DNA of 64,000 nucleotides from Bilabrum cf. latius (Eukaryota). Shown one piece after another: positions 1-51,276 of this stretch; positions within the stretch are counted from its first letter, which is position 1, and every line of letters starts with the position of its first letter. The stretch lies in contig OZ237738.1 of NCBI GenBank assembly GCA_965178125.1, positions 1-64,000 on the forward strand, written 5' to 3'. The notes beneath the pieces are model-generated. The model saw only the letters and a program-made list of their open reading frames with translations. It had not been told where the DNA came from and did not search any database. The position numbers and the translations under genes were made by a program.

Positions 1-456
1 CCCTAACCCTAACCCTAACCCTAACCCTAACCCTAACCCTAACCTAACCCTAACCCTAACCCTAACCCTAACCCTAACCCTAACCCTAACCCTAACCCTA
101 ACCCTAACCCTAACCCTAACCCTAACCCTAACCCTAACCCTAACCCTAACCCTAACCCTAACCCTAACCCTAACCCTAACCCTAACCCTAACCCTAACCC
201 TAACCCTAACCCTAACCCTAACCCTAACCCTAACCCTAACCCTAACCCTAACCCTAACCCTAACCCTAACCCTAACCCTAACCCTAACCCTAACCCTAAC
301 CCTAACCCTAACCCTAACCCTAACCCTAACCCTAACCCTAACCCTAACCCTAACCCTAACCCTAACCCTAACCCTAACCCTAACCCTAACCCTAACCCTA
401 ACCCTAACCCTAACCCTAACCCTAACCCTAACCCTAACCCTAACCCCTAACCCTAA
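1..456 (+). repeat. Terminal telomere tract (CCCTAA)n, i.e. TTAGGG on the minus strand
   Basis: Near-perfect CCCTAA array from base 1; C-rich strand 5' to 3', as expected for a left chromosome end. Confidence 0.98.
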
Positions 457-501
457 GAAAATATTTTTTCCCCGACCCTGTCCCTGACTTTATATTAGAT
501 A
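457..501 (+). repeat. Stand-alone 45-bp cap motif GAAAATATTTTTTCCCCGACCCTGTCCCTGACTTTATATTAGATA embedded in telomeric repeats
   Basis: Identical copies at 457, 1743, 2023, 3309, 3661, 4959, 5305, 6160 and 6543, each followed directly by CCCTAA repeats. Confidence 0.95.
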
Positions 502-567
502 CCCTAACCCTAACCCTAACCCTAACCCTAACCCTAACCCTAACCCTAACCCTAACCCTAACCCTAA

Positions 568-1787
568 CCAGGCCGTCCCGATGCAGTTTGAACGGTCTTC
601 ATATCACCTGTAGTTGCCGAGATCGTAGCACGTCGTTTTTCGGTGTGAAATTCTTCATACACCCATATCGGCGCCGCGCGGCCAGAACGGAACCTGGGGA
701 ATATTTGGCCCATGTTTTGCCCCCAGGCCGTCCCGATGCAGTTTGAACGGTCTTCATATCACCTGTAGTTGCCGAGATCGTAGCACGTCGTTTTTCGGTG
801 TGAAATTCTTCATACACCCATATCGGCGCCGCGCGGCCAGAACGGAACCTGGGGAATATTTGGCCCATGTTGTGCCCCCAGGCCGTCCCGATGCAGTTTG
901 AACGGTCTTCATATCACCTGTAGTTGCCGAGATCGTAGCACGTCGTTTTTCGGTGTGAAATTCTTCATACACCCATATCGGCGCCGCGCGGCTAGAACGG
1001 AACCTGGGGAACATTTGGCCCATGTTGTGCCCCCAGGCCGTCCCGATGCAGTTTGAACGGTCTTCATATCACCTGTAGTTGCCGAGATCGTAGCACGTCG
1101 TTTTTCGGTGTGAAATTCTTCATACACCCATATCGGCGCCGCGCGGCCAGAACGGAACCTGGGGAACATTTGGCCCATGTTTTGCCCCCAGGCCGTCCCG
1201 ATGCAGTTTGAACGGTCTTCATATCACCTGTAGTTGCCGAGATCGTAGCACGTCGTTTTTCGGTGTGAAATTCTTCATACACCCATATCGGCGCCGCGCG
1301 GCCAGAACGGAACCTGGGGAACATTTGGCCCATGTTTTGCCCCCAGGCCGTCCCGATGCAGTTTGAACGGTCTTCATATCACCTGTAGTTGCCGAGATCG
1401 TAGCACGTCGTTTTTCGGTGTGAAATTCTTCATACACCCATATCGGCGCCGCGCGGCCAGAACGGAACCTGGGGAACATTTGGCCCATGTTGTGCCCCCA
1501 GGCCGTCCCGATGCAGTTTGAACGGTCTTCATATCACCTGTAGTTGCCGAGATCGTAGCACGTCGTTTTTCGGTGTGAAATTCTTCATACACCCATATCG
1601 GCGCCGCGCGGCCAGAACGGAACCTGGGGAACATTTGGCCCATGTTGTGCCCCCAGGCCGTCCCGATGCAGTTTGAACGGTCTTCATATCACCTGTAGTT
1701 GCCGAGATCGTAGCACGTCGTTTTTCGACAAATATTGAAGATGAAAATATTTTTTCCCCGACCCTGTCCCTGACTTTATATTAGATA
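568..1787 (+). repeat. Telomere-interspersed module A1: seven 155-bp units, a partial unit and the 45-bp cap
   Basis: 155-bp periodicity (ORF track repeats at 599, 754, 909 and so on); flanked by CCCTAA tracts. Confidence 0.95.
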
Positions 1788-2133
1788 CCCTAACCCTAAC
1801 CCTAACCCTAACCCTAACCCTAACCCTAACCCTAACCCTAACCCTAACCCTAACCCTAACCCTAACCCTAACCCTAACCCTAACCCTAACCCTAACCCTA
1901 ACCCTAACCCTAACCCTAACCCTAACCCTAACCCTAACCCTAACCCTAACCCTAACCCTAACCCTAACCCTAACCCTAACCCTAACCCTAACCCTAACCC
2001 TAACCCTAACCCCTAACCCTAAGAAAATATTTTTTCCCCGACCCTGTCCCTGACTTTATATTAGATACCCTAACCCTAACCCTAACCCTAACCCTAACCC
2101 TAACCCTAACCCTAACCCTAACCCTAACCCTAA

Positions 2134-3353
2134 CCAGGCCGTCCCGATGCAGTTTGAACGGTCTTCATATCACCTGTAGTTGCCGAGATCGTAGCACGTC
2201 GTTTTTCGGTGTGAAATTCTTCATACACCCATATCGGCGCCGCGCGGCCAGAACGGAACCTGGGGAATATTTGGCCCATGTTTTGCCCCCAGGCCGTCCC
2301 GATGCAGTTTGAACGGTCTTCATATCACCTGTAGTTGCCGAGATCGTAGCACGTCGTTTTTCGGTGTGAAATTCTTCATACACCCATATCGGCGCCGCGC
2401 GGCCAGAACGGAACCTGGGGAATATTTGGCCCATGTTGTGCCCCCAGGCCGTCCCGATGCAGTTTGAACGGTCTTCATATCACCTGTAGTTGCCGAGATC
2501 GTAGCACGTCGTTTTTCGGTGTGAAATTCTTCATACACCCATATCGGCGCCGCGCGGCTAGAACGGAACCTGGGGAACATTTGGCCCATGTTGTGCCCCC
2601 AGGCCGTCCCGATGCAGTTTGAACGGTCTTCATATCACCTGTAGTTGCCGAGATCGTAGCACGTCGTTTTTCGGTGTGAAATTCTTCATACACCCATATC
2701 GGCGCCGCGCGGCCAGAACGGAACCTGGGGAACATTTGGCCCATGTTTTGCCCCCAGGCCGTCCCGATGCAGTTTGAACGGTCTTCATATCACCTGTAGT
2801 TGCCGAGATCGTAGCACGTCGTTTTTCGGTGTGAAATTCTTCATACACCCATATCGGCGCCGCGCGGCCAGAACGGAACCTGGGGAACATTTGGCCCATG
2901 TTTTGCCCCCAGGCCGTCCCGATGCAGTTTGAACGGTCTTCATATCACCTGTAGTTGCCGAGATCGTAGCACGTCGTTTTTCGGTGTGAAATTCTTCATA
3001 CACCCATATCGGCGCCGCGCGGCCAGAACGGAACCTGGGGAACATTTGGCCCATGTTGTGCCCCCAGGCCGTCCCGATGCAGTTTGAACGGTCTTCATAT
3101 CACCTGTAGTTGCCGAGATCGTAGCACGTCGTTTTTCGGTGTGAAATTCTTCATACACCCATATCGGCGCCGCGCGGCCAGAACGGAACCTGGGGAACAT
3201 TTGGCCCATGTTGTGCCCCCAGGCCGTCCCGATGCAGTTTGAACGGTCTTCATATCACCTGTAGTTGCCGAGATCGTAGCACGTCGTTTTTCGACAAATA
3301 TTGAAGATGAAAATATTTTTTCCCCGACCCTGTCCCTGACTTTATATTAGATA
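2134..3353 (+). repeat. Telomere-interspersed module A2 (copy of A1, offset 1566 bp)
   Basis: Same length and same unit-by-unit variant pattern as A1. Confidence 0.95.
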
Positions 3354-3783
3354 CCCTAACCCTAACCCTAACCCTAACCCTAACCCTAACCCTAACCCTA
3401 ACCCTAACCCTAACCCTAACCCTAACCCTAACCCTAACCCTAACCCTAACCCTAACCCTAACCCTAACCCTAACCCTAACCCTAACCCTAACCCTAACCC
3501 TAACCCTAACCCTAACCCTAACCCTAACCCTAACCCTAACCCTAACCCTAACCCTAACCCTAACCCTAACCCTAACCCTAACCCTAACCCTAACCCTAAC
3601 CCTAACCCTAACCCTAACCCTAACCCTAACCCTAACCCTAACCCTAACCCCTAACCCTAAGAAAATATTTTTTCCCCGACCCTGTCCCTGACTTTATATT
3701 AGATACCCTAACCCTAACCCTAACCCTAACCCTAACCCTAACCCTAACCCTAACCCTAACCCTAACCCTAACCCTAACCCTAA

Positions 3784-5003
3784 CCAGGCCGTCCCGATGC
3801 AGTTTGAACGGTCTTCATATCACCTGTAGTTGCCGAGATCGTAGCACGTCGTTTTTCGGTGTGAAATTCTTCATACACCCATATCGGCGCCGCGCGGCCA
3901 GAACGGAACCTGGGGAATATTTGGCCCATGTTTTGCCCCCAGGCCGTCCCGATGCAGTTTGAACGGTCTTCATATCACCTGTAGTTGCCGAGATCGTAGC
4001 ACGTCGTTTTTCGGTGTGAAATTCTTCATACACCCATATCGGCGCCGCGCGGCCAGAACGGAACCTGGGGAACATTTGGCCCATGTTTTGCCCCCAGGCC
4101 GTCCCGATGCAGTTTGAACGGTCTTCATATCACCTGTAGTTGCCGAGATCGTAGCACGTCGTTTTTCGGTGTGAAATTCTTCATACACCCATATCGGCGC
4201 CGCGCGGCTAGAACGGAACCTGGGGAACATTTGGCCCATGTTGTGCCCCCAGGCCGTCCCGATGCAGTTTGAACGGTCTTCATATCACCTGTAGTTGCCG
4301 AGATCGTAGCACGTCGTTTTTCGGTGTGAAATTCTTCATACACCCATATCGGCGCCGCGCGGTCAGAACGGAACCTGGGGAACATTTGGCCCATGTTGTG
4401 CCCCCAGGCCGTCCCGATGCAGTTTGAACGGTCTTCATATCACCTGTAGTTGCCGAGATCGTAGCACGTCGTTTTTCGGTGTGAAATTCTTCATACACCC
4501 ATATCGGCGCCGCGCGGCCAGAACGGAACCTGGGGAACATTTGGCCCATGTTGTGCCCCCAGGCCGTCCCGATGCAGTTTGAACGGTCTTCATATCACCT
4601 GTAGTTGCCGAGATCGTAGCACGTCGTTTTTCGGTGTGAAATTCTTCATACACCCATATCGGCGCCGCGCGGCCAGAACGGAACCTGGGGAACATTTGGC
4701 CCATGTTGTGCCCCCAGGCCGTCCCGATGCAGTTTGAACGGTCTTCATATCACCTGTAGTTGCCGAGATCGTAGCACGTCGTTTTTCGGTGTGAAATTCT
4801 TCATACACCCATATCGGCGCCGCGCGGCCAGAACGGAACCTGGGGAACATTTGGCCCATGTTGTGCCCCCAGGCCGTCCCGATGCAGTTTGAACGGTCTT
4901 CATATCACCTGTAGTTGCCGAGATCGTAGCACGTCGTTTTTCGACAAATATTGAAGATGAAAATATTTTTTCCCCGACCCTGTCCCTGACTTTATATTAG
5001 ATA
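3784..5003 (+). repeat. Telomere-interspersed module A3
   Basis: Same length and boundaries as A1/A2 but a different order of unit variants. Confidence 0.95.
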
Positions 5004-5563
5004 CCCTAACCCTAACCCTAACCCTAACCCTAACCCTAACCCTAACCCTAACCCTAACCCTAACCCTAACCCTAACCCTAACCCTAACCCTAACCCTAAC
5101 CCTAACCCTAACCCTAACCCTAACCCTAACCCTAACCCTAACCCTAACCCTAACCCTAACCCTAACCCTAACCCTAACCCTAACCCTAACCCTAACCCTA
5201 ACCCTAACCCTAACCCTAACCCTAACCCTAACCCTAACCCTAACCCTAACCCTAACCCTAACCCTAACCCTAACCCTAACCCTAACCCTAACCCCTAACC
5301 CTAAGAAAATATTTTTTCCCCGACCCTGTCCCTGACTTTATATTAGATACCCTAACCCTAACCCCTAACCCTAACCCTAACCCTAACCCTAACCCTAACC
5401 CTAACCCTAACCCTAACCCTAACCCTAACCCTAACCCTAACCCTAACCCTAACCCTAACCCTAACCCTAACCCTAACCCTAACCCTAACCCTAACCCTAA
5501 CCCTAACCCTAACCCTAACCCTAACCCTAACCCTAACCCTAACCCTAACCCTAACCCTAAACC

Positions 5564-6204
5564 CAAAAACGGAACCTGGGGAACATTTTCCCCATGTTGT
5601 GGCCCTAGGCCGTCCCAATGCAATTTGAACGGTCTTCATATCTCCTGTGGTTGCCGAGATCGTATCCCGCAGGATTTCAGCATGAAAATCTTCAAGGCCC
5701 AATATTGGCGCCGCGCGTCAAAAACGGAACCTGGGGAACATTTGCCCCATGTTGTGGCCCTAGGCCGTCCCAATGCAATTTGAACGGTCTTCATATCTCC
5801 TGTAGTTGCCGAGATCGTATCCCGCAGGATTTCAGCATGAAAATCTTCAAGGCCCAATATTGGCGCCGCGCGTCAAAAACGGAACCTGGGGAACATTTGC
5901 CCCATGTTGTGGCCCTAGGCCGTCCCAATGCAATTTGAACGGTCTTCATATCTCCTGTAGTTGCCGAGATCGTATCCCGCAGGATTTCAGCATGAAAATC
6001 TTCAAGGCCCAATATTGGCGCCGCGCGTCAAAAACGGAACCTGGGGAACATTTGCCCCATGTTGTGGCCCTAGGCCGTCCCAATACAATTTGAACGGTCT
6101 TCATATCTCCTGTGGTTGCCGAGATCGTATCCCGCAGGATTTTGTCAAAATTCGAAGATGAAAATATTTTTTCCCCGACCCTGTCCCTGACTTTATATTA
6201 GATA
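5564..6204 (+). repeat. Telomere-interspersed module B (diverged 155-bp repeat subfamily plus cap)
   Basis: 155-bp period (5636 to 5791); shares GGAACCTGGGGAACATTT and TTTGAACGGTCTTCATATC with family A; ends in the same cap. Confidence 0.93.
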
Positions 6205-6323
6205 CCCTAACCCTAACCCTAACCCTAACCCTAACCCTAACCCTAACCCTAACCCTAACCCTAACCCTAACCTTACCCTAACCCTAACCCTAAACCCTAA
6301 CCCCTAACCTAACCTAAACCCTA

Positions 6324-6587
6324 CATCTTCATATCTACTCTGGTTGCCGAGATCTCAATTCCGTATTTTGGTCCACGAAATTCTTCATCCGGCCATATCG
6401 GCGCCGCGCGACAAAAACGGATCCTAATAAAATTTTGCCCCATGTTGTGCCCCAGGGCCGACCCAATGCAGTTTGAATCATCTTCATATCTACTCTGGTT
6501 GCCGAGATCTCAATTCCGTATTTTGATGCAAAAAATGAAGAAGAAAATATTTTTTCCCCGACCCTGTCCCTGACTTTATATTAGATA
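6324..6587 (+). repeat. Telomere-interspersed module C (third subfamily plus cap)
   Basis: TCTTCATATCTACTCTGGTTGCCGAG recurs at 6326 and 6481 (155 bp apart); cap at 6543-6587. Confidence 0.9.
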
Positions 6588-7592
6588 CCCTAACCCTAAC
6601 CCTAACCCTAACCCTAACCCTAACCCTAACCCTAACCCTAACCCTAACCCTAACCCTAACCCTAACCCTAACCCTAACCCTAACCCTAACCCTAACCCTA
6701 ACCCTAACCCTAACCCTAACCCTAACCCTAACCCTAACCCTAACCCTAACCCTAACCCTAACCCTAACCCTAACCCTAACCCTAACCCTAACCCTAACCC
6801 TAACCCTAACCCTAACCCTAACCCTAACCCTAACCCTAACCCTAACCCTAACCCTAACCCTAACCCTAACCCTAACCCTAACCCTAACCCTAACCCTAAC
6901 CCTAACCCTAACCCTAACCCTAACCCTAACCCTAACCCTAACCCTAACCCTAACCCTAACCCTAACCCTAACCCTAACCCTAACCCTAACCCTAACCCTA
7001 ACCCTAACCCTAACCCTAACCCTAACCCTAACCCTAACCCTAACCCTAACCCTAACCCTAACCCTAACCCTAACCCTAACCCTAACCCTAACCCTAACCC
7101 TAACCCTAACCCTAACCCTAACCCTAACCCTAACCCTAACCCTAACCCTAACCCTAACCCTAACCCTAACCCTAACCCTAACCCTAACCCTAACCCTAAC
7201 CCTAACCCTAACCCTAACCCTAACCCTAACCCTAACCCTAACCCTAACCCTAACCCTAACCCTAACCCTAACCCTAACCCTAACCCTAACCCTAACCCTA
7301 ACCCTAACCCTAACCCTAACCCTAACCCTAACCCTAACCCTAACCCTAACCCTAACCCTAACCCTAACCCTAACCCTAACCCTAACCCTAACCCTAACCC
7401 TAACCCTAACCCTAACCCTAACCCTAACCCTAACCCTAACCCTAACCCTAACCCTAACCCTAACCCTAACCCTAACCCTAACCCTAACCCTAACCCTAAC
7501 CCTAACCCTAACCCTAACCCTAACCCTAACCCTAACCCTAACCCTAACCCTAACCCTAACCCTAACCCTAACCCTAACCCTAACCCTAACCC
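6588..7592 (+). repeat. Innermost ~1-kb (CCCTAA)n tract
   Basis: Uninterrupted telomeric hexamer array. Confidence 0.97.
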
Positions 7593-7614: not shown

Positions 7615-7860
7615 CGGTGGGTGGGATAGTGTTCGGTGGGTGAGATGGTCGTACGCTGGATGGTGCTCGGTGGGTGAGATGGTCGTGCGCTGGATGCAGC
7701 TCGGTGGGTGGGATAGTGTTCGGTGGGTGAGATGGTCGTGCGCTGGATGCAGCTCGGTGGGTGGGATAGTGTTCGGTGGGTGAGATGGTCGTGCGCTGGA
7801 TGCAGCTCGGTGGGTGAGATGGCCGTGCGCTGGATGATACTGTCGGAGGTGAGATAGCCG
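7615..7860 (+). repeat. Subtelomeric GT-rich minisatellite
   Basis: Mixed units GGTGGGTGGGATAGTGTTC and GGTGGGTGAGATGGTCGTGCGCTGGATGCAGCTC. Confidence 0.85.
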
Positions 7861-16400: not shown

Positions 16401-19400
16401 TGGCCGCCTCGTGAGGCCGCGATTCCGTGGTGTCAGCAGTGGGATACTTGCTGGCCTGGTCTGTGTAGAGCCACAGCAGCAGCGTTGCAAGCCCACATAA
16501 GAAATCATCTTCGTCGACTACTCGCAATGAATCCACGGCGAGGCTCCCGCTAGCAGAGGCCTCAAATTGAGGTTGTGCCTAGCCTCCAGTCGTTGCCCAT
16601 GCTGATGCTGAACTTATCATTACACCAGCATCAACCAGGCTGCGGACTACCACGCCCGATGAGGGCCCCATTGATGCAGCGGGTTTAGATTCGCGTGTTG
16701 TAGCCGCATCCGAGGTTCTCCTAGTACTTGTGGATCTCGAGACCAGCCGCCACAGCTACTGCTAGACCTTGCTCAACGTGCTTGCAACCTGGTCACGAGA
16801 GCTAGTTGCCACTTCGAACGGAAGAATAGGAAACTCACAATGACTCGAAAGGTCGAGGTCAACAAGCTCACCCCCTTCATTGGCTGCATGCAGGGTATTG
16901 CGATCACCTGGTCCATCGCCCCGCAAGTTGGACCAGGCACCAGCATCTTCATGAATTTCTCCAGGTCTATTTTCCCCCGATGAAGACTGGTCATGCTTGG
17001 TTGAATCCAGCGTAGATCCAGGAATATCAAGCTCTGCAATGGCGGCCGAATTCACACACCAACTCTGCCACTGAAGAATTCGCACATCTTCAACCACTCG
17101 GCCACCCACGCCGATCGGTTTTTGATCTAGAGCATTGCTGGGGAACGAAGTGCTGCTGAACGCCCCGTGCTGAGGCGCAGTTGGCTGCGCATCGATCTTA
17201 GCTCTCACACTGGCAGGAAGAACAGCAATCTACAGAACTCGGATGAGCCCTCTGCAGTCCAACAGCAAGCAAGCCTGCAGGCGCTTGAACGGACCTGGAA
17301 GGTCTTGGAGGTGCCGCATTGATTCACGAAAAGACGAAAGCACTTGCTCCTATGCTGCTTGCACGACCATAGCATGCGCGCTGGTGCTTCGATCAGACGC
17401 GGCTTCCCTGCTGCTCGCAGCGTCCTACAGCCCAGAACTTGAAGGATCTATTATGGTCTCACTTGCCTGCAGGCTGCTGAGCAAGGCTTCATCGATATCA
17501 GGAAATGTACCGTCGCTAGTGGAGCTACACAGGGCAGCCAAAAAATCAGCCCTAAATGCGACGAGGTCGATGCTGCCAGGCGTAGTCACTAACTCTCCCG
17601 GTGAAGGAAACTCGGAAGCACCCAGCCCATCCACATGCACGTCTACCGACCTGAAAGGGCGGGCATCGAGAGTCTGCCGCATGAAATGTAGAAGCACAAT
17701 CCTTGCTCGATGATGTGTTTGCATGGCAAGTCTACTGATGCGCTGGTCTCCTGTCTCCTCTTTGGATGACTCAGGCTCACTTGGATCAGCGAAATTGAGT
17801 AGTGGAGCCCCCCCAAGTAAAAGTAGATCGCAAGCTGAAGTGCCAGATTTCATCACTTCGGAGAGAACCACTACCAGCGCCGCCCACAGCCCAAGTCTGA
17901 CACATACCTTCACGAGAAGATTAATGTCCATATGTGATCGGGCGCTCAAGTGCAGCAGACACCGTTCGAGGATATCTCCTCTGCCTAGCTACTTGTAAAG
18001 GTTGATCCAAGCCACGACAACACTAGCGGGCATACCTTCGATTGAATTGTGTAGGATGTACGGCTCAAGCTCGATTAAGAACAGCTGAGCCCACGATGAA
18101 GCGTCAAAAGCTTCAAATACAGCACGGAACAGCGGTCCGTCCTGTTGTGCCAAACCTGCACCGACGGCAAAGTCAATCGCAGCTCTTGCGAGCCGAGAGC
18201 ATGGGTGCGCAGATGGCCTTCCAACACCCAAGCCGTGAGCGCATTGCGAAGCGAGTTCGAGGCCACTGTGTCTGCTGAACAAAGCGGGATTTGAAGCTGA
18301 GATAGCCTCGAGACCTTGCTTTGGAGCCAACTTTAAAATATCTGCAGCAAGACGGCGCTGACCGAACTCCGCCTGGTACTCTCGCAAACGACCTGACATT
18401 GCACCACCAAGTCCAGCAGATGGTAGCGCGCGGGAGTCTCCCGCCTCAGCAGCTCGCTTCAACCTCAATGTCAACCGTTGCCGCAGCTTGCCCTCACGAT
18501 CGGCCCTTCGCAGAAACGCAAGCGACAAAGCCATGGCACCAATCGAATCCCCGGTCGACACCAATCCGTGGCAGCGAGCTGGGATACTCTGCAGCTGTAA
18601 CAGCGTTGTAGAGTCTGTGCCGACAAGCACTATCTAATTGCGAGATCCGTCCAACTCGGAGTCCGATCCCCATACTCGGATGGGAGAACATCGGCCGATT
18701 GTGACAGAGCCAGAGAAGGACAAGTGCGCCAAGGCAGCCACGACACTTGCTTCACCAGGTGTTCCTTCAAAAACCTTCGGGATGCGAATAATGTCATCCG
18801 TGTGGCCTTCGCCCACGGAACCTTTCAATTTTTGCTCCTGTACAACACGGGAGTGCTGGAGCATGGCATCCTGCAGAATCTGCGTCCTGAACTGTTTGGG
18901 GACCGGCAATGGCCTGCTGCTCAACTGCAGGCCAGAGAGACCAATTCGCTCGGCTACCTGCATCGTTTGCGTGTTCAGCAGAGCAGCTGAGCCGCATGAA
19001 ACAAGCAAGAGGCGCGATGAAGACAGCCACTCCAATGCAACGACGGGCTCATCCGTGCGTAGATCAGCACACAACAAGAAGTTGAGCGGGGCAGCTTCGG
19101 CGCTTGATCCATCACCAACAGCGAAAGCTCGGCTGCTAGCACTCGCGGCTGCTTCGGCACTGCTTGCCGTAATACGTGAGTCGGCTTGTTTGGAGCCACG
19201 CACTCGATCTCTGTTCTGCTCGGTAGCATAGCCATCGGAGGGCTGCACCTGCACAATCTGCACGCATGTGCCCCAAGCGCGAGCTACAGTTAGCACTGGA
19301 TCTGTGCATGCCAGGCCTTGCTTCAGGACTTTTGGGACAACAGTAGTCCTCGATCCATCTGCTTCAAATGCTCTAGGGACACCTGCGGTCCTATCGAGCC

Positions 19401-21778
19401 GCACCGACGACACCTGCATGGTTGATGCGTAGCCCCACGCAACGGAGGGAGCAAATAGGGGAGACACACCCCTCGGCCTGTCCCACCGTAGCTGCACCTC
19501 AAACTTCGGCCTGGATCTAAATATGAAGGTGCTATCTAGGCTACTGGCGGAAACGAGCCAGCCCGACTAGCCAAGCTGTCGCATTTGCTTCACAGGAACA
19601 CCTCGCGATTCAGCCACTGCTGACCGTTCCAATTCCCACGCAGCTGGGACAGAGTCGCAGCACGATGGTGTGAATGCGGCTTGGCGCATTCGAGTCGATC
19701 CATCAAGAAGAATCTTGGGATGCAAACTTGCTGACTGCAGGAACGACTCGTGCAGCTTGTATAGTACCATCACGCCGCCATCGCACATTGCAATCAACTC
19801 TGGAAGCGCTGATTTTTCTCTGGCTGCTGGAGGTGCAGACCCAACTAAACTCCGACCGCAATCATCGAAGGAGCAATCGGGACCATCATGCGTAAAATGC
19901 ATAGCAAGAATCTAGCCCCGATGGTGCCCGCGTACAGCAGCCCGTGGCTTACCTGCGACATCAACGACAACATCTACTGCTTGCTCCTTCCGAGTCAAGG
20001 GGCCTTGCCGAAATGCTTGTGCAGAGCTGGATACTGTCTCGATGCGCAAGGAGACGAGCCTTACTTCTCCAGACGCCAGTCCAGCTGCAAGTTCGGACCC
20101 GTCCTTACTGATCGCCACGCTTGTTACAGCGGCACTGCCTGCTGCACCCTCGGATCTCGGCCGCAGGTCTATTTCCCCACTGAAACACAAACCCGGCACG
20201 TCAACTGGTGTCGGCAGCTGGCCACCAGACTGCTTCAGAGTAGCAGCCGCCGATTTACTACAGAGTGGTCGAAGCTACTACCACTGCCTTGCAGATAGTC
20301 CCCGCCATGAAAACACCAGGGCAAATCCAGCGGAAGTTCCCACGACGAGGACGAGGCCGCACGCCGCACTGCATAGTATACGCCCGTATCGCCTCGCCTG
20401 CTACTGTCTACCTGCACCGGAAGAGAAAGTAGCCCTATTGAGAATACTAGCGACATCTCTTAGGGGTACTGATCGAATGTGCGCTGAAGGCTTCGGGGCA
20501 TCAATGGGGTGGGGCGCAACGGCACCAACGGTCGAACCGACCGTTTCAATCGATGGCTCGCTGCCGCGTCCTCCGGCAGCCCCAGTTGAAGCAAGGAGCC
20601 ATCCACGAGAGTCTATTTGGTCGGAAGCGACACTCAGAAGCTCTGATCCGCCTTCAGCAAGTCTCGCAGCAATGCCCGGGTCCGTCTGCACTTCGAGCCC
20701 GCCCTGCACGCCGGGAGGCGCGACTGCTTGCGGAGGCAGCATCAGCGAGGCAAACTACTCAGCAAACGGGGAGATCAGCCGTGCACCTTCCCCTGCTTGC
20801 AGCCGTCGCATCGTCTCTGACGCGCGCATGAGCGGGCTACGTTGAAACCAAGCTGAATGCGAAGTCCGAGTGCTCTCTTTGCCGCCAGCACCAGTCTCAG
20901 CGGCACCATCGCCAGCCTCAGCCGTACCACCGGCATCCTCGCTGTCATGTTCAAGTCTGTTCACAATGGCTTCGCTTTGGCGTATCGTTTCGAGAACTTG
21001 CGGAGGCAACAGGTCAGCGTCTGTGGCTCCTTCCGCCCAGCCCATGGGGTCCTGCGCTGCGGAGTCGTGCCGACTTGCGGGATCAGCTCCACGAGTCTCG
21101 TTAGCTCGTGGTGTCCCTTGTCCCTATGGCTAGTCGCTGACGCCCGTCAATTCGTCGAGCTACTATATCGCCTGCTGTCGATGTCTAGCAGCGTCGGAGC
21201 TTCTGTGAGGTGCCTCCCCGGACGTGACAATGGCGCGCACTTCAACATCGTCCGGATGGGGAATGCTGGAAGATTCATCATCAGAGTCATCATGTAAAAT
21301 AGCGCTTAGGGTCGACTCTTGCCGAGCTTGCCGCAAGTGCTCGTCTATTTCGGCCGACAGCGCAGTAGCCAAACTAGCGTCCGCATCTGGCACCGAGGCA
21401 GCAGTGCCAGAAGGCGCACCGACACCACCCCTGCAACAAGTTATGTTATATGGGATTGTGGAATTTCTTTGATGCCCGAGGAAAGGAACGTAGACTGTAG
21501 ATCCGCTGCTCGAATTCTCACGCTTGATCAGTTGTGCTGCCGCCATCGTCCCCACGACCCTCGCTTTCTTCGCTCATGTCATCGTCCCCCGCATCAATGT
21601 CAATTCCAAGACTAGCTAGAAGCTGCGAATCATCAACACTACCACCACCAATGGACTAGCTCTTTTGCAGAGCTCGACCATCAGAATCTTCGCTGCCATC
21701 ATCCCCTCCAATTTGGTTCAAGAATGCATCCAAGTCTCCTGATACATCATCAGAACCATCGGATGAATAATCACTCAT
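13498..21778 (-). CDS. VPS8: Vacuolar protein sorting-associated protein 8 (CORVET subunit), about 2730 codons; intron 21431-21521
   Basis: 13 ORF fragments share one frame and the junctions I read through contain only TAG; motifs VVGTSAG, ARAWG, FLIELEPYIL, MDINLLVKVC..LW, LLCKLEP, LWFDLLD; ends in TGA. Confidence 0.8.
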
Positions 21779-39412: not shown

Positions 39413-39526
39413 GCACCGTGTTAATGATGTAGCTGGCTGCAGCAAATTCTGTTCTTCCGGCTTTCGCGTGTGTGGGCTTTGCGGTGTTCACAAGTATCAA
39501 ACGCAAGATGAAATGCCTAAACTGAC

Positions 39527-41221
39527 ATGATCGGTCAATTGTTTCGACCGATCACGAGGGAGTGTGCGCGCGGCCGCATGCAACGCATCACCTGCGCTTG
39601 CTCCAGAGCCTTCTCTTCGAAAGTGTGTGTTGGTTTGTCTGGCGGAGTAGACTCTAGTGTTGTCGCTTTGCTGGGCAAGAAAGCTGGGCTCGACATACAC
39701 GCAGTTTTTATGAAAAACTGGGACAGCTCGGACGAGCGAGGTACATCTTGCCAGTTTGAAGAGGACTGGGATAGTGCACGTAGAGTTGCAGACCATTTGT
39801 CGATCCCGATTAGTCGGGTAGACTTATCAAAAGAGTACTGGAACGATGTGTTTGAGCCCTTTCTTGAGGACTACTCGAATAACTTTACTCCAAATCCGGA
39901 CGTTGGGTGCAATAGGCACATCAAGTTCGGCGCCTTTATGCGATGGTGTGTGCGGGAGCTCGAAGCGGATATAGTCGCAACAGGGCATTACGCCCGCTTA
40001 TCTGCATGCCCACCGTCTATAGCAACTTCGTTAGACGCGTGCAGCCGTGGCTCTGACACTAGAGTGTTCTCCATGCCTACGGGGGACCTAGAGCAGGTGC
40101 TTGCGAATGCATCATGTGATTGGGCGCCATCTGAGCTGCGACGTGCCATTCCAGCGCACATCGGCAGCCCCCCCCAACTATTGCAAGGCGTAGATAAAGG
40201 TAAGGATTAGAGCTACTTTCTCGCTCAAGTCGACCGTGGTGCATGGGCACGAACGTGGATGCCCCTCGGTGAGTTCCACAAGCAAGACGTGCGTCGGCTG
40301 GCTCATGCGGCTGGCCTGCCCACTGCGACAAGAAAGGATAGCGTTGGTATATGCTTCATTGGCAAGCGAAAGATGGGAGACTTTCTGCCTCAGTACATCC
40401 CAATGAAGCAGGGCAATTTCAGGTTGTGGCCGGACGAGCCATTGAGCGAGGCTGCGGCGGGCCCGCCAGACTCTGACACCGAGTTGAACGGCGCTCCAGT
40501 GTCTCTACCGTCCCTCGGGGCCCACAGCGGAGTCGCTCTTTATACGGAGGGTCAAGCAGCTGGCATTGGAGGACTGCCCCGCAAGGCGTACGTAGCGAGG
40601 AAAGGCGTGGACGTGGCAGCGACCGTACGCGGATGGAGCACTGCCGGCACATCGTCATCGGCGAGCAAGCGGTCAGGCTGGGCGGCAGGCAGCGACATCG
40701 TTGTGGTGCAGGCTCGCACCCACCCGCTTCTATACACGAGGTCTGTGTTCCTGCGCCTGGACCGGCTAGTCGGCCAGCTCGCCGGGTAGCAGTGGGAACG
40801 TGCCATCCGAAGCGAGGGGGGCCTAGCCGTGGCTGCTCGATTCCGCAATCTGCAGCCGCTGGTGCGCGGCTGCAATGCCTCGGTGACTGCTGATGGGGTG
40901 CACCTCCGCGTGGAACTGCCGATGCCGCACCGCGCCCTGTCTCCGGGACAGGTGGCCGTGCTGCACCTGGAGCAGGAGCACTGGCCCTCTAGTGCAGAGG
41001 GGCTGCTGGACTATGCTGAGCTCCCTGTCCTCGCATCTGCGCCCATCGATGACACGGGGCCATCGCTGCTGCACGAGGGCCGACTGTAGCCAATGCCGGC
41101 TGAAGGCTAGACGAGTCTGTTCCCGGGAGTGCTCCGGGCGGGATCGCACCCTTTAGCAGTGCAGCCGCAGCTTGGTGACACTGATTGTGCACTTACAGAG
41201 GAGGACATGTGGATCGACTGA
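39527..41221 (+). CDS. TRMU: Mitochondrial tRNA 2-thiouridylase MnmA/TRMU
   Basis: GLSGGVDSSV, MKNWD, TPNPDVGCNRHIKFG, ATGHYA, KD*SYFL, KDSVGICFIG, ALSPGQ; ends in TGA. Confidence 0.93.
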
Positions 41222-41321
41222 GGCGTTGAGAGCATGAACAGACTGTACAAGATCGTATCTTTGCAAATCACCCCTTATTTAATTGAGCCATCCGACCAAA
41301 CCATGCAGCGCTTAAACACAC

Positions 41322-42818
41322 TCACGCCCGAGGCTAACCGACTGCAGCCACGTGTCTCCTCGCCTTGCCTGCACCAATCACAGCGACCTGTCCGTGGAGC
41401 ACTCCTGCCGGCCCAATGGGCGCACTGGCCTCCTTTGCGTCCACCCTGCTCCCATTGAGGGAGAGGCCCCCTGCTTTGGCCAGCCGGCGCGCCTCGGCCT
41501 TTGACGATGCGAGACCCGTAGATTGTGCCAACTCCAGCACAGAGCTGCCTTGCAGAGCTTCCGCTGAGTCGAGTAGGGAACCAGGAATCGTGCCAGCCTG
41601 CACGCATGCCGCCAGCTCTGCAACAGCCCCAGGACTAGACTAGTCCTGAGACTCGCTGCCGTGCAGCGTGGATGTGGCTGCTCGTGCGATGTCCAATGCG
41701 TCCCTCCCGCGCACCATTCTTGTGACTTCGTCTGCAAGCAGCTGCTGCGCGTGCCTGAGGTGGGGAGCCTCCGCGTGTTCCTGCAGCGCTGTGTCCACGT
41801 CTCGCATGGGTAGCAGGGTTAGCTTGGGGAGCAAGTTAGCCGCGTCGTCGTCCGACATGCGCACAAAGTACTGATAGAAGGTGTAGTGGGGCGTCTACTC
41901 TGGGTTGAGCCAGACCGCCGCATTTCCCTCAGACTTACCGATCTTGCGGCCCGCCGCGTTGGTCAGCAGCGGCACTGTGATGCCGTACACCTCATCCCCA
42001 CACATTCGTCTGACCAGGTCCACCCCTGCCACGATGTTCCCCCACTAATCCGATCCCCCGATCTGCATCGCGCACCCATGCTCCCGGTACAGCGTCCAAA
42101 AGTCCCAGGCCTGCAGCACCTGGTATGTGAACTCGGTGAAGCTGAGACCTGCCTCAGATGCAAGGCGAGACTTCACGCTGTCTTTAGATAGCATTGTCGA
42201 CATCCTGAAGTGCCTACCAACCCCGCCAATAAAGTCGAGCGCAGACATGTCGCGATAGAAGTCCCCGTTCTGCACCACTTCTGCCCTGGGCGACGCTTCT
42301 TGCCCATGCCACAGCTCTGGCAATTCGCCAGAGGCACTCAATCTCGCGGCATAATAGTCATGATCACCATCGCGACACAGCACCTGCTCGACACTCCTCT
42401 GTATCCCAGCCAAGTTTGTCTGCAGCTGCTCTTCTCCGAGCTGAGGTCTCTCCGAGCTCTTTCCGCTAGGATCGCCAATGCGTCCAGTAGCACTGCCAAC
42501 CAACGCCACTGGTCGAATGCCATGCAAGCTCATATGCTTCATCAGCACGAGTGGAAGTAGGTTTCCGACGTGAAGACTTGGGGCCGTAGGGTCCTAGCCA
42601 ACGTACACGCTGCATGGTGGACAACTCGTTTTCCCTTCTGCTGACCACTGTGAGCGTGATGTCCAACTATCGAAAACGTTGCTGCAGCTCTCTGAAGTGA
42701 CAGCATCTACCAGTCCTCGTTTGCGGGCTGCGGCAAGCCAGCTTGTTTTAGCGGTCGTACACAAAGATCTAAACCCGGTATTCCACCTCCTTACTACTCC
42801 ATTTCGCATAAACATCAT
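41322..42818 (-). CDS. YARS2: Mitochondrial (bacterial-type) tyrosyl-tRNA synthetase
   Basis: [11 protein letters not shown] (HIGH), [34 protein letters not shown] (KMSKS-like), S4-like C-terminus; ends in TGA. Confidence 0.93.
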
Positions 42819-48756: not shown

Positions 48757-51276
48757 TCAGTGGCACCCAGTCCTGGTCAGGTCTGCCGCCAAGCAGAAAT
48801 GGTCAGAGCCGAACCCGCACTCAGGCGCTGGCAGCCCGCCCAGCCCGCCACGGTCGCGGCGACCAGCGATGGCGCGTAGATCAGGGTAGGCGGGCAGCTC
48901 CAACCGGCTCACGGGCGCCAAAGCAGCTTCACAGAATATGTAGTCCACGGCTGCGACGATGGTGGCAGTCAGCTGTGTGGCGGCGGGCTCGTTGGTACCT
49001 GATCGGGGCACTCGCGTGCCAGCGGCGTACACCGAGGACAGCCCCGCCCCTGGCTGGTTGAGGCCGCTGTCTAGAGACTCCGGGACGGAATCTGGTCGCA
49101 AGCCAGACACAAGTGCGTGAGTGACAGCCATGTCGCTGGGAAAGGATCGCCTCAGGCCTGTCACCAGCAACTCGGGGCGAAACGGCAGCAGCTCTGCAGC
49201 AGGCAACCCCAGCGCAACGCGCGGTGACAGTGAATGTGGTGTGGTGCTGCAACCGCTGCTCCTGCTTGCTGCAGCAATTCCGGGTAGTTCCGCAGAGGCC
49301 TTCGCTTTCGCGTGCTTGGAAACCGCTGAAATACCGCTGTCACGCGAGAGGCCCACGCCTTCCTGTCGCTTCGCAGACTCCATCTCAAGCCCGTGGCTGC
49401 CCTTTGAGGCAGCTCCGGTTGTACCACCTGCCTCGAATCTCTCTGAATCGGCAGCCAGCAAGCTTGCAGAGAACTATGCGACCCGCCCCACGTCTGGGCG
49501 ATACGGAGGATGCACAGCTGTGCAGCCTGGGCGGACAGCCATAGAGGAAGGCAGAACACCTGCACCTGCACCTGCACCTGCACCTGCACCTGCACCTGCA
49601 CCTGCACCTGCACCTGCACCTGCACCTGCACCTGCACCTGCACCTGCACCTGCACCTTCATCTGCACCTGCACCTTCATCTGCAGGCGCATGTGCATGGC
49701 TGCCGCTTGAGACGCTTGAAGGTGTGCCTATCGGTCCACTTTCAGCTGGCTCGTCGTCGCGTGGTATGCCCACAGCAGGATCTATAGGAGATGTAGAGCG
49801 CGGGTGTCTTGCTGCAGCACCACCCGTCGCAGCTTCTACCAGAGGTGCCCCTTCTACCAGAGGTGCCCCTTTGCCAGCAGACCCACTAGACCACGCAACT
49901 AGCAGCGCGCTTGTTTGCGTGCGTGCCTTTGCCTCTGGGTGCCAGCCCAAGCCCCCTCTCGATGCAGCGCGCAGCCCTTTCGCCCACTCCAGCCCAGGGG
50001 ACGAATATGCCCGCCCCTGCGCGCCTCCACCTCGCCCCCTGCCTCTCCCTCTCCCTCTCCCTCGACCCCTGCTCCGACTCGGGTGCCTCGCCCCCCGCGC
50101 TGCGATCCTCTCTGCCCCGTGCGGCAGTGCAGTGCACACTTCCAGCCGCCGCCGCATTTGAGCCCGGATAGGCTCGTACGCGATGTCCTCCGGCGAGCTT
50201 CCTCCCAGCACCAGGGCACACGCCCGCGGTGTGTCGAGGAGCCCTTCCGCACTGATCTTGCCACCACTGCCCCTGCTCCTGCTCCTGCTCCTGACTGCAC
50301 CTGGGGCCCTCCCATGACGCGATTCATGCGGCCTCAGTCCCGCCAGCTCCCTCACAGGCGACTGCGGGCTCGAGTTGAAGTCCCCGCAGAGCAGCACGGG
50401 GGCCTGCTGCGGGGAGAGGCCGAGGGCCAGCCGCATGGAGGCGGCCGCCTGCAGGATGAGGCACAGCTGGGCCAGCCGTACCTCGCCTCGACGGGGGTTA
50501 AATACGAGGTGCGTGTTGCAGACCAGCAGGTACTGCCGGGCATCGCTGCCACGAGCAGCCTCTGCCTCTCGAGCCCGCTTGCGAGGTCGGGTGACAGCGC
50601 AGGCGAGAGCGGGGACCCGCACGGTGGTGCTGCCGCGAGCAGATTTGTGCCTCAAATCCTGAAGCAGAAGCAGCTGGCACCGCTGAGGTTTGGCAGCGAG
50701 CAATCCCAGTCCGTCGACTTCGGCTGCACCTCGCCTTGATGCAGCCCTCGCGCGAGACTGCTTCGCTGAGGCTGCAATGGCCAAGCATCGAGAGGATCCT
50801 GTAGGTCCGCGTGCAGAGGCATGAGACGCAGTCCCGAGGGCTATGGTGCACATCGACTTCAAACGAAATCTATCTGGTCTCCAAAACACAGCCAGTCCAT
50901 CCTTCTTGCCATTCCTGGGGCAGAACTCAAACTCGTCCATCCCGAGCCCAGCAAGTCGGCTTTGCAGAGAATCGCCGCCTGTGCCAATCCCAGATTCCGG
51001 GAATTCCTAAAAGCAAGCTAAATCTGGTGCGACTGCTGCGATCTCGCCAACAATGGCAGCCTGTCTGGCGTGCCATGATAGGCTAGAGGGCGGCTTCCAC
51101 GGGAAATGCCCAGGCTCAATGTTCGAAGGTGCTAGAATATTGTACGATAGCACTCGAGTAGCTGAAAGGCCTTGGTCAACTCGATTGCATGGCAACCATT
51201 CCCTCGACAGCGAGTTCACACCAGCAGGCCGCGAGGCACCAATCGTATCGGTTGCGAATCGCCTCCTGCCACGCAT
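48757..51276 (-). CDS. Angel/CCR4-like EEP-family phosphatase/nuclease
   Basis: VLSYNILA, DLACF*E, NTHLVFNPRRGEVRLAQL, LCGDFNS, GSDH; ends in TGA. Confidence 0.88.
49558..49655. repeat. (CCTGCA)n microsatellite encoding poly-GA in the Angel protein
   Basis: About 16 perfect hexamers. Confidence 0.9.

What the first reader, a model, noticed from the sequence alone, without database searches (positions are those of the whole stretch)
457..6587. Telomere built from polarised non-coding modules with one fixed end and variable truncation
Seen: nine copies of an identical 45-bp cap always abut (CCCTAA)n on the centromere-proximal side. The distal extent varies (45 bp, ~260 bp, ~640 bp, 1220 bp), and all copies share one orientation. 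On the G-strand each module starts at a fixed base after TTAGGG repeats, stops at a variable point, and TTAGGG resumes. Knowledge: this polarity is typical of elements reverse-transcribed onto chromosome ends and then capped, such as Athena/Coprina Penelope-like elements and HeT-A/TART. Inference: it may be a non-autonomous, satellite-carrying element added to telomeres by a reverse transcriptase or telomerase, alternating with normal telomerase activity. No RT gene is present in this window.
Basis: partly seen in the sequence, partly recalled or inferred. Interest (0 to 1): 0.78.

Follow-up and report, generated by a model that had tools for sequence, protein, structure and literature searches.

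The report
Truncated giant telomere-only mobile elements
The repeated blocks inside this chromosome end are cut-short copies of large, gene-carrying mobile elements found at most chromosome ends examined in a protist; they resemble known telomere retrotransposons, but no copying enzyme could be found in them, so how they spread is an open question.

Summary
Observation confirmed: nine identical 45-bp caps abut (CCCTAA)n in one orientation, but they hold only four independent truncations; a 45+1220 block is tandemly duplicated. The modules are not small non-coding units. They are cap-side fragments of family A, a 13-18 kb element with a 2328-aa and a ~512-aa ORF (TAG read as Gln) under purifying selection. 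Across 49 sampled ends, 189 of 200 modules end in one of four fixed caps (related families A-D), with 84 distinct distal junctions bearing irregular, apparently new telomeric repeats. TERT is present. No reverse transcriptase, hammerhead or conserved RNA fold was found in the elements, and no Penelope-type RT among the genome's RTs that I read. The arrays work like Terminons or MoTeRs but fail membership. Most likely: the chromosome end primes copying from the cap, copying stops early, telomerase caps the new end, and recombination amplifies blocks. RNA template 0.45, DNA template 0.4. The large orphan protein is the open piece.

The parts
1..456 (+). terminal (CCCTAA)n tract at the start of contig C4
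   Evidence: window = G000:C4:1-64000
457..501 (+). family A module cut down to the 45-bp cap (copy 1 of 4 with one shared junction)
   Evidence: same junction in 11 modules at C4L, C5L, C17R, C26L
568..1787 (+). 1220-bp family A module: about 7.5 units of a 155-bp repeat (variant 1) plus cap
   Evidence: 7 differences from the cap end of the long copies at C23L, C25R, C9L
2023..2067 (+). 45-bp cap module, copy 2
2134..3353 (+). 1220-bp module, copy 2 (identical to copy 1)
3661..3705 (+). 45-bp cap module, copy 3
3784..5003 (+). 1220-bp module, copy 3 (5 differences from copies 1 and 2)
5305..5349 (+). 45-bp cap module, copy 4
5562..6204 (+). 643-bp family A module, 155-bp repeat variant 2 (83% like variant 1) plus cap
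   Evidence: 0 differences from the cap end of the 13.2-kb copy at C36R
6324..6587 (+). 264-bp family A module, repeat variant 3 (about 75% like variants 1 and 2) plus cap
   Evidence: 4 differences from the cap end of the 13.6-kb copy at C28R
502..6323 (+). eight interstitial (CCCTAA)n tracts of 66-307 bp between the modules; irregular units cluster at the side that meets the next module's truncated end
6588..7592 (+). innermost telomeric tract, about 1 kb, perfect repeats
7615..7836 (+). subtelomeric minisatellite with a GGATG-type core; marks the innermost boundary here and at most other ends

Best explanation
The window shows an array of distally truncated copies of a large telomere-restricted mobile element (family A, one of four related families). 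Shown: a fixed cap always joined to CCCTAA repeats; many independent truncations; long ORFs under purifying selection; telomerase present; later DNA-level duplication of whole blocks. Inferred mechanism: a long transcript of the C-rich strand ends in cap plus CCCUAA repeats. The G-rich 3' end of a chromosome pairs with those repeats and is extended by a reverse transcriptase that starts at the cap. Synthesis usually stops early (median 1.1 kb, a minority reach 7-14 kb), and telomerase then adds new repeats. Rounds of this build head-to-tail arrays, which recombination (D-loop copying, rolling circles, exchange between ends) multiplies. The RT is not a recognisable part of the element; it would be supplied in trans (an undetected Penelope-type RT or host TERT), or be the unrecognisable large ORF, with element proteins binding the cap and repeat motifs.
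For: 189 of 200 modules at 49 ends end in one of four caps, in one polarity. There are 84 distinct distal junctions, and most are private to one end: shared by more than one end (C85 ignored) are 9 of 55 in A, 0 of 19 in B, 0 of 4 in C, 1 of 6 in D. This fits repeated copying from long masters. In A, 39 of 55 junctions lie under 2.1 kb from the cap and 8 over 7 kb. Distal junctions have irregular repeats in 47 of 84 cases against 6 of 84 proximal, and 0-2 nt microhomology in 59 of 62 that could be mapped on a longer copy. Families whose large proteins are only 21-26% identical keep the same junction motifs: caps A, B, C share CCGA.CCT, TGAC and GATA at the same register. All four families carry CGGAAY plus GKCGCC in their last 400 nt (A 124 and 128 of 128, B 13 of 13, C 4 of 4, D 9 of 9; background 5 of 137 windows). 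dN/dS is 0.20-0.32 for the large A ORF and 0.15-0.22 for D. The same polarity and truncation are described for Terminons (PMC6431247, passages) and MoTeRs (PMC7367193, passages).
Against: No RT was detected in the element proteins. Pfam and PDB give nothing. An RT profile built from this genome's RTs finds the left-out TERT (E 3e-6) but not A, B or D (E 0.1-0.7), and they share no conserved aspartate pair. There is no hammerhead core and no Rfam match, and 0 of 19 predicted pairs covary at the A 3' end. There is no poly(A). The large ORF is antisense to the presumed template in A and B and sense in D. DNA-level events are evident: tandem multi-module blocks, six cap-less element junctions, and a host gene fragment between tracts in the orientation opposite to an mRNA copy. 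The MoTeR paper shows truncation plus new telomere and block duplication arising without transposition. The shared motifs were chosen after seeing the sequences, and the copies are not independent.
Confidence: 0.45

Rival explanations
1. DNA-only route, like yeast Y' elements (recalled). A short or broken telomere invades the telomeric tract beside a cap at another end or on a circle, and DNA polymerase copies through the cap into the element. Copying aborts or the end later erodes, and telomerase heals it. The fixed junction is inherited from one ancestral join per family; the element proteins promote this recombination or serve the host.
For: Identical multi-module blocks occur in tandem and on different chromosomes (45+1220 at four ends; a four-module 12-kb block three times at C36R). 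No RT, ribozyme or conserved fold was found. One cap-less junction is already shared by C17L and C36L. The large ORF is nearly identical between subfamilies whose small ORF differs at dS 0.08-0.39, which implies exchange between copies. PMC7367193 (passages) documents truncation with de novo telomere, BIR and D-loop amplification in MoTeR arrays; PMC7736798 (abstract) shows BIR ending in new telomeres.
Against: It does not by itself explain short motifs kept at the exact junction across families with 21-26% protein identity. It predicts many shared junctions when most donors are short, yet B has 0 of 19 shared. There is no P-loop motif or Pfam helicase match in the large ORFs.
Confidence: 0.38
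2. Non-autonomous passengers of one of the genome's non-LTR retrotransposons, inserted into telomeric tracts by nicking and target-primed reverse transcription, as for MoTeR2 or TRAS.
For: The genome holds LINE-like and CRE-like RT families (class names from recalled motifs). Fixed 3' and truncated 5' ends fit TPRT (PMC12857005, section 19).
Against: None of the 84 RVT_1 matches lies in a telomeric array that I sampled; the nearest (C37:10593) is about 9 kb inside the last tract. There is no poly(A). Irregular repeats at distal junctions point to new synthesis rather than a pre-existing tract.
Confidence: 0.08
3. Assembly artefact, or a plain subtelomeric satellite without mobile behaviour.
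For: Tandem blocks can be over- or under-assembled. Contig C85 seems to duplicate parts of C19R and C25L. Five contig starts carry non-element DNA joined to tracts, one with a bacterial sigma-factor gene.
Against: 84 distinct junctions at many ends; irregular repeat units recur at the same place in blocks on different chromosomes; ORFs are under selection; a run from another study holds the large ORF in contigs of 2.8 and 3.9 kb with 1 and 22 differences.
Confidence: 0.03

Closest known systems
Terminons / endonuclease-less Penelope-like elements (Athena, Coprina)
   Same: Large elements with accessory ORFs whose 3' end is joined to reverse-complement telomeric repeats, mostly 5'-truncated by telomeric repeats, in head-to-tail arrays (PMC6431247 and PMC8557442, passages; the primary Terminon paper is not held).
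   Different: No Penelope-type RT, no hammerhead and no conserved 3' fold here; no Pfam match to any accessory function; the large ORF is an orphan shared by families A, B and D; the host is a stramenopile protist.
MoTeR1/MoTeR2 of Magnaporthe oryzae (and FoTeRs)
   Same: Head-to-tail arrays inside telomeres separated by TTAGGG tracts, truncated copies capped by new telomere, repeated multi-element blocks from D-loop or rolling-circle copying, telomerase retained (PMC7367193, passages; PMC12857005, abstract and section 19).
   Different: MoTeR1 encodes an RT with a restriction-like endonuclease; no such ORF was found here. The elements here carry orphan ORFs and reach 18 kb, and truncation is the rule, not a rare event.
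Yeast Y' elements (recalled, no paper read)
   Same: Coding, telomere-only elements flanked by telomeric tracts and amplified by recombination.
   Different: Y' has two defined ends and a helicase ORF; here one end varies freely and no P-loop or helicase match was found.
Drosophila HeT-A/TART/TAHRE (recalled; review seen only as a search listing)
   Same: Polarised arrays growing at chromosome ends, with 5' truncation and an RT-less member.
   Different: Here TERT and canonical repeats are present, there are no poly(A) tails, and no RT-bearing partner was found.

Membership tests
Terminon / EN-minus PLE | 3' end joined to reverse-complement telomeric repeats at a fixed point | tested here: met
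   187 of 189 capped modules are followed by 18 nt of perfect CCCTAA
Terminon / EN-minus PLE | 5' truncation by telomeric repeats, head-to-tail arrays at chromosome ends | tested here: met
   84 distinct distal junctions; 47 of 49 sampled ends carry capped modules
Terminon / EN-minus PLE | element-encoded PLE-clade reverse transcriptase | tested here: not met
   No Pfam or PDB match; home-made RT profile finds TERT but not A, B, D; no conserved DD motif. B was seen only to residue 1357 and C only in part.
Terminon / EN-minus PLE | PLE RT elsewhere in the genome that could act in trans | tested here: inconclusive
   84 RVT_1 matches, none in a sampled array; 17 read as LINE-, CRE- or DIRS-like and 3 fetched ones gave no readable RT. 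The same search missed TERT, so it can miss a PLE RT; not all ends were fetched.
Terminon / EN-minus PLE | hammerhead ribozyme next to the 3' telomeric repeats | tested here: not met
   No CTGANGA..GAAA core on either strand of the longest copy of each family; no Rfam match at E<=1 in six loci holding caps A, B, C but not cap D; no covariation at the A end. Unusual core variants (PMC4209133, passages) were not modelled.
Terminon / EN-minus PLE | accessory ORFs (Rep, DEDDy, GDSL, GIY-YIG, coiled coil) | tested here: inconclusive
   Accessory ORFs exist but match no Pfam family; predicted folds had pLDDT 33-35; coiled coil not formally tested
MoTeR-type telomeric non-LTR retrotransposon | RT with restriction-like endonuclease in the autonomous member | tested here: not met
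MoTeR-type telomeric non-LTR retrotransposon | head-to-tail arrays with interstitial TTAGGG tracts, truncated copies, repeated blocks | tested here: met
HeT-A/TART | poly(A) tail at the proximal junction and absence of telomerase | tested here: not met
   junction is cap then CCCTAA; TERT found, open under table 15 through its RT motifs
Y' element | helicase ORF and two fixed ends (recalled) | tested here: not met
   no P-loop or Pfam helicase; distal end variable
any retroelement | RNA intermediate covering the cap | not testable with these tools
   only contigs were available and no holder is on record as RNA

The most novel reading that the evidence does not exclude
A new class of telomere parasite. 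Four related families of 10-18 kb elements have no polymerase of a known kind, share an orphan protein of over 2000 residues and a conserved junction signal, and are written onto chromosome ends either by hijacking host telomerase (an RNA that ends like a telomerase template but has no boundary, so TERT copies on into the element) or by an enzyme of unrecognised fold.
Probability: 0.2. Interest if true: 0.9.

Novelty: new variant of a known kind. Interest (0 to 1): 0.66.

Why it matters
Telomere-targeted elements described in the papers I read bring their own RT or have an RT-bearing partner. Here most sampled chromosome ends of a telomerase-positive protist carry arrays of four related coding families (about 405 kb of modules in the ends sampled) with no RT found. 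If they move through RNA, the enzyme is host TERT, a missed Penelope-type RT or a new protein, and each bears on how telomerase relates to retroelements. If they move through DNA only, this is a Y'-like system outside yeast with dozens of natural junctions showing how telomerase caps non-telomeric ends. Either way it gives a conserved cis signal and an orphan protein to test.

Tried and rejected
Function of the large ORF: Pfam, PDB by sequence and profile and PHROGs (82) gave no match. Two AlphaFold jobs gave pLDDT 35 and 33. RT-like motifs that I thought I saw by eye were rejected after the profile tests. Homologue searches found only fragments: 11 proteins for D, 10 at 57-88% identity and one at 35%, and 3 near-identical pieces for A (54). 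One search was wasted on a length window of 30-56 residues. JGI metagenome contigs gave no confirmed relative of D (84). The ESM Atlas gave no result for this protein, so that comparison is open. A TERT RT segment as query found only TERT (69). The 14 GIY-YIG matches sit in short frames, not RT-sized ORFs. A hammerhead look-alike 45-60 nt before the A junction was rejected: its core position 3 varies between subfamilies and it is absent from B-D (70, 76). No RNA holder was listed; higher depth over the small ORF in X6 and X8 was not used, since the runs are contigs and may be DNA (56). A full cross-family blastn output was partly cut and is used only for the weak B-C repeat similarity and the N gap. 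dN/dS rows for C28R, C11R and C26R were dropped because their frames run into telomeric repeats. Searches of earlier scan findings returned nothing. Literature searches showed no description of these elements; the library lacks most subscription papers.
Full report
Observation. The window is the left end of contig C4 of a 48.6-Mb genome in 111 contigs. The 45-bp cap occurs nine times, only on the + strand, each time followed directly by CCCTAA repeats; module lengths are 45 (four times), 1220 (three times), 643 and 264. The nine copies contain four distinct distal junctions, because 45+tract+1220 is a block repeated three times; the 1220 copies differ by 0, 5 and 5 bases. The three 155-bp repeat variants are 75-83% alike while the cap is identical.

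Genome-wide pattern. A 44-nt cap pattern has 149 exact matches, 62 forward and 87 reverse, against 0 for the control; 100 were listed. Forward matches lie within 35 kb of contig starts, and reverse matches lie near contig ends wherever I know the length. The one exception, C14:701351, is 1.8 kb from a 200-base N gap and is probably a mis-joined end (inference). I rebuilt 49 end regions (including that site and the small contig C85, which seems to duplicate parts of C19R and C25L) and cut them at telomeric tracts. Of 200 modules, 153 end in cap A, 22 in cap B, 4 in cap C, 10 in cap D and 11 in none. Of the 11, six are element pieces lacking a cap and five are non-element DNA at contig starts. 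Exact patterns for caps B and C have 24 and 8 matches in the genome, all polarised in the same way apart from one B copy in the C14 array. Not all chromosome ends were fetched.

Junctions. After the cap, the first 18 nt are perfect repeats in 187 of 189 modules. Closed modules give 55 distinct distal junctions of 137 in A, 19 of 21 in B, 4 of 4 in C and 6 of 8 in D. Irregular repeats lie within 36 nt of 47 of 84 distal junctions against 6 of 84 proximal ones. Of 84 junctions, 62 could be mapped on a longer copy, 59 with 0-2 nt of overlap with the repeat; a few of these mappings are imperfect. This is what telomerase capping of a non-telomeric end should leave (inference). The median distance of A junctions from the cap is 1107 bp; 39 of 55 are under 2.1 kb and 8 are over 7 kb.

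The full element. The host reads TAG as Gln: a tRNA-modification enzyme in the window has a TAG inside a motif that I recall as KDQSYFL, and stops inside RT matches are almost all TAG. All named close relatives of a housekeeping protein are stramenopiles. Read with table 15, long A copies (11-18 kb at C23L, C25L, C25R, C28R, C36R, C11L, C11R) run from distal to proximal as follows: tandem repeats, a 2328-aa ORF on the G-rich strand, a divergent ORF of about 512 aa on the C-rich strand, satellite arrays, cap. The window's 1220, 643 and 264 modules match the cap ends of such copies with 7, 0 and 4 differences. Family B has the same layout with a 319-331-bp repeat. Family C has a 339-bp repeat and a small ORF 35% identical to B's. 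Family D is about 10 kb with a 2138-2167-aa ORF on the C-rich strand. The large proteins are homologous: A and B over 900 residues (E 3e-23 in a small set, 21-26% identity), B and D weakly (E 1e-4 to 1e-5), A and D directly only at E 0.03-0.08. dN/dS is 0.20-0.32 among differing full-length A large ORFs, 0.43-0.77 for the small ORF and 0.15-0.22 between two D subfamilies at dS 1.6. A run from another study holds the large A ORF in contigs of 2.8 and 3.9 kb with 1 and 22 differences; 15 of the 24 listed differences in the ORF are silent, with 245 rows of that table not shown.

Conserved end signals. Caps A, B and C share CCGA.CCT, TGAC and a terminal GATA in the same register to the repeats. 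All four families have CGGAAY and GKCGCC in their last 400 nt (A 124 and 128 of 128; B 13 of 13; C 4 of 4; D 9 of 9) against 5 of 137 background windows. These motifs were picked after inspection and the copies are related, so this is a lead for a cis-acting signal, not proof. There is no sign of an RNA structure: 0 of 19 predicted pairs covary in 26 A ends, and there is no hammerhead core and no Rfam match.

Search for the enzyme. TERT is present and open through its RT motifs. The element proteins match nothing in Pfam, PDB or PHROGs, and predicted structures were unusable. A profile built from this genome's RTs finds the left-out TERT at E 3e-6 but not A, B or D. Of 84 RVT_1 matches none lies in a sampled array. 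The 17 that I could read look LINE-, CRE- or DIRS-like by recalled motifs, and three more gave no readable RT. That search missed TERT, so a Penelope-type RT may also have been missed.

Mechanism. DNA-level amplification is shown: blocks repeat in tandem and across chromosomes. What creates new truncated modules is not shown. The RNA route (0.45) is favoured by mostly private junctions (shared by more than one end: 9 of 55 in A, 0 of 19 in B), a short-biased length distribution with a long tail, deep conservation of junction motifs, and precedent. The DNA route (0.38) is favoured by the missing RT and ribozyme, the opposite orientation of the large ORF in D, cap-less junctions, and a captured gene fragment whose orientation is not that of an mRNA copy. 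Aborted break-induced replication from a telomeric tract followed by telomerase capping would give the same polarity (inference). In mixed ends B tends to be innermost (7 of 11) and A outermost (6 of 11), consistent with outward growth in waves.

Comparison. It works like Terminons (PMC6431247, three passages; PMC8557442, nine passages; PMC4209133, twelve passages) and like MoTeR arrays (PMC7367193, twelve passages; PMC12857005, abstract and section 19; PMC7736798, abstract). It fails the defining tests of both: no RT, and no hammerhead or endonuclease. The primary Terminon paper was not available; Y' and HeT-A features are recalled. No supplements were read. Six literature searches showed no account of these elements.

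Verdict. Interest 0.66; a 0.2 chance of a new mechanism that would deserve 0.9.

Noticed in passing
window 39521-41500 and 16762-19566; genome-wide: The nuclear code reads TAG as Gln while TAA and TGA appear to stop, in a stramenopile. One literature search listed no paper on such a code in this group.
   Followed up: partly
window 7615-7836 and innermost boundaries of other ends: Each end has its own minisatellite just inside the last telomeric tract, with different units but a shared GCGGTGGATG-like core: 24 of 34 ends against 5 of 366 background windows (motif chosen after inspection). Some family D copies begin with such a minisatellite. It may be a telomere-adjacent binding or seeding signal.
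   Followed up: partly
C19 right end, L049 (module 17265-18036 of the rebuilt end): A 772-bp fragment of an RNA polymerase largest-subunit gene (identified by recalled motifs) lies between telomeric tracts, with its sense on the G-rich strand.
   Followed up: no
L043:1-3441 (C14 start); also distal to tracts at C15L, C20R, C8R, C27R: Non-element DNA is joined distal to telomeric tracts. At C14L it encodes a bacterial sigma factor and ends in the same six letters as cap A. Chimeric reads or capture; not resolved.
   Followed up: no
L157:1-2186 (C28 left end) and L110 (C23 right end): ORFs with integrase-like and primase/helicase-like motifs (recalled) lie upstream of a family C small ORF, and a GIY-YIG match lies at C23:991126; they look like endogenous virophage- or Maverick-type insertions.
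   Followed up: no
L045 (C14:695000-704999): An internal telomeric array with A and B modules sits beside a 200-N gap; probably a mis-scaffolded chromosome end.
   Followed up: partly
L081/L143 (C4:1606130-1611022): TERT lies near the other end of the same contig and carries a long Gly-Ala repeat before its RNA-binding domain.
   Followed up: no
L128 (C29 right end) and L106 (C2 right end): 2.7-kb family D modules; the C29 pair begins with the end-type minisatellite and lacks the large ORF, like internally deleted derivatives.
   Followed up: no
window 49474-51006 (-): ORF with an endonuclease/exonuclease/phosphatase match, E 2e-5; possibly a LINE fragment.
   Followed up: no
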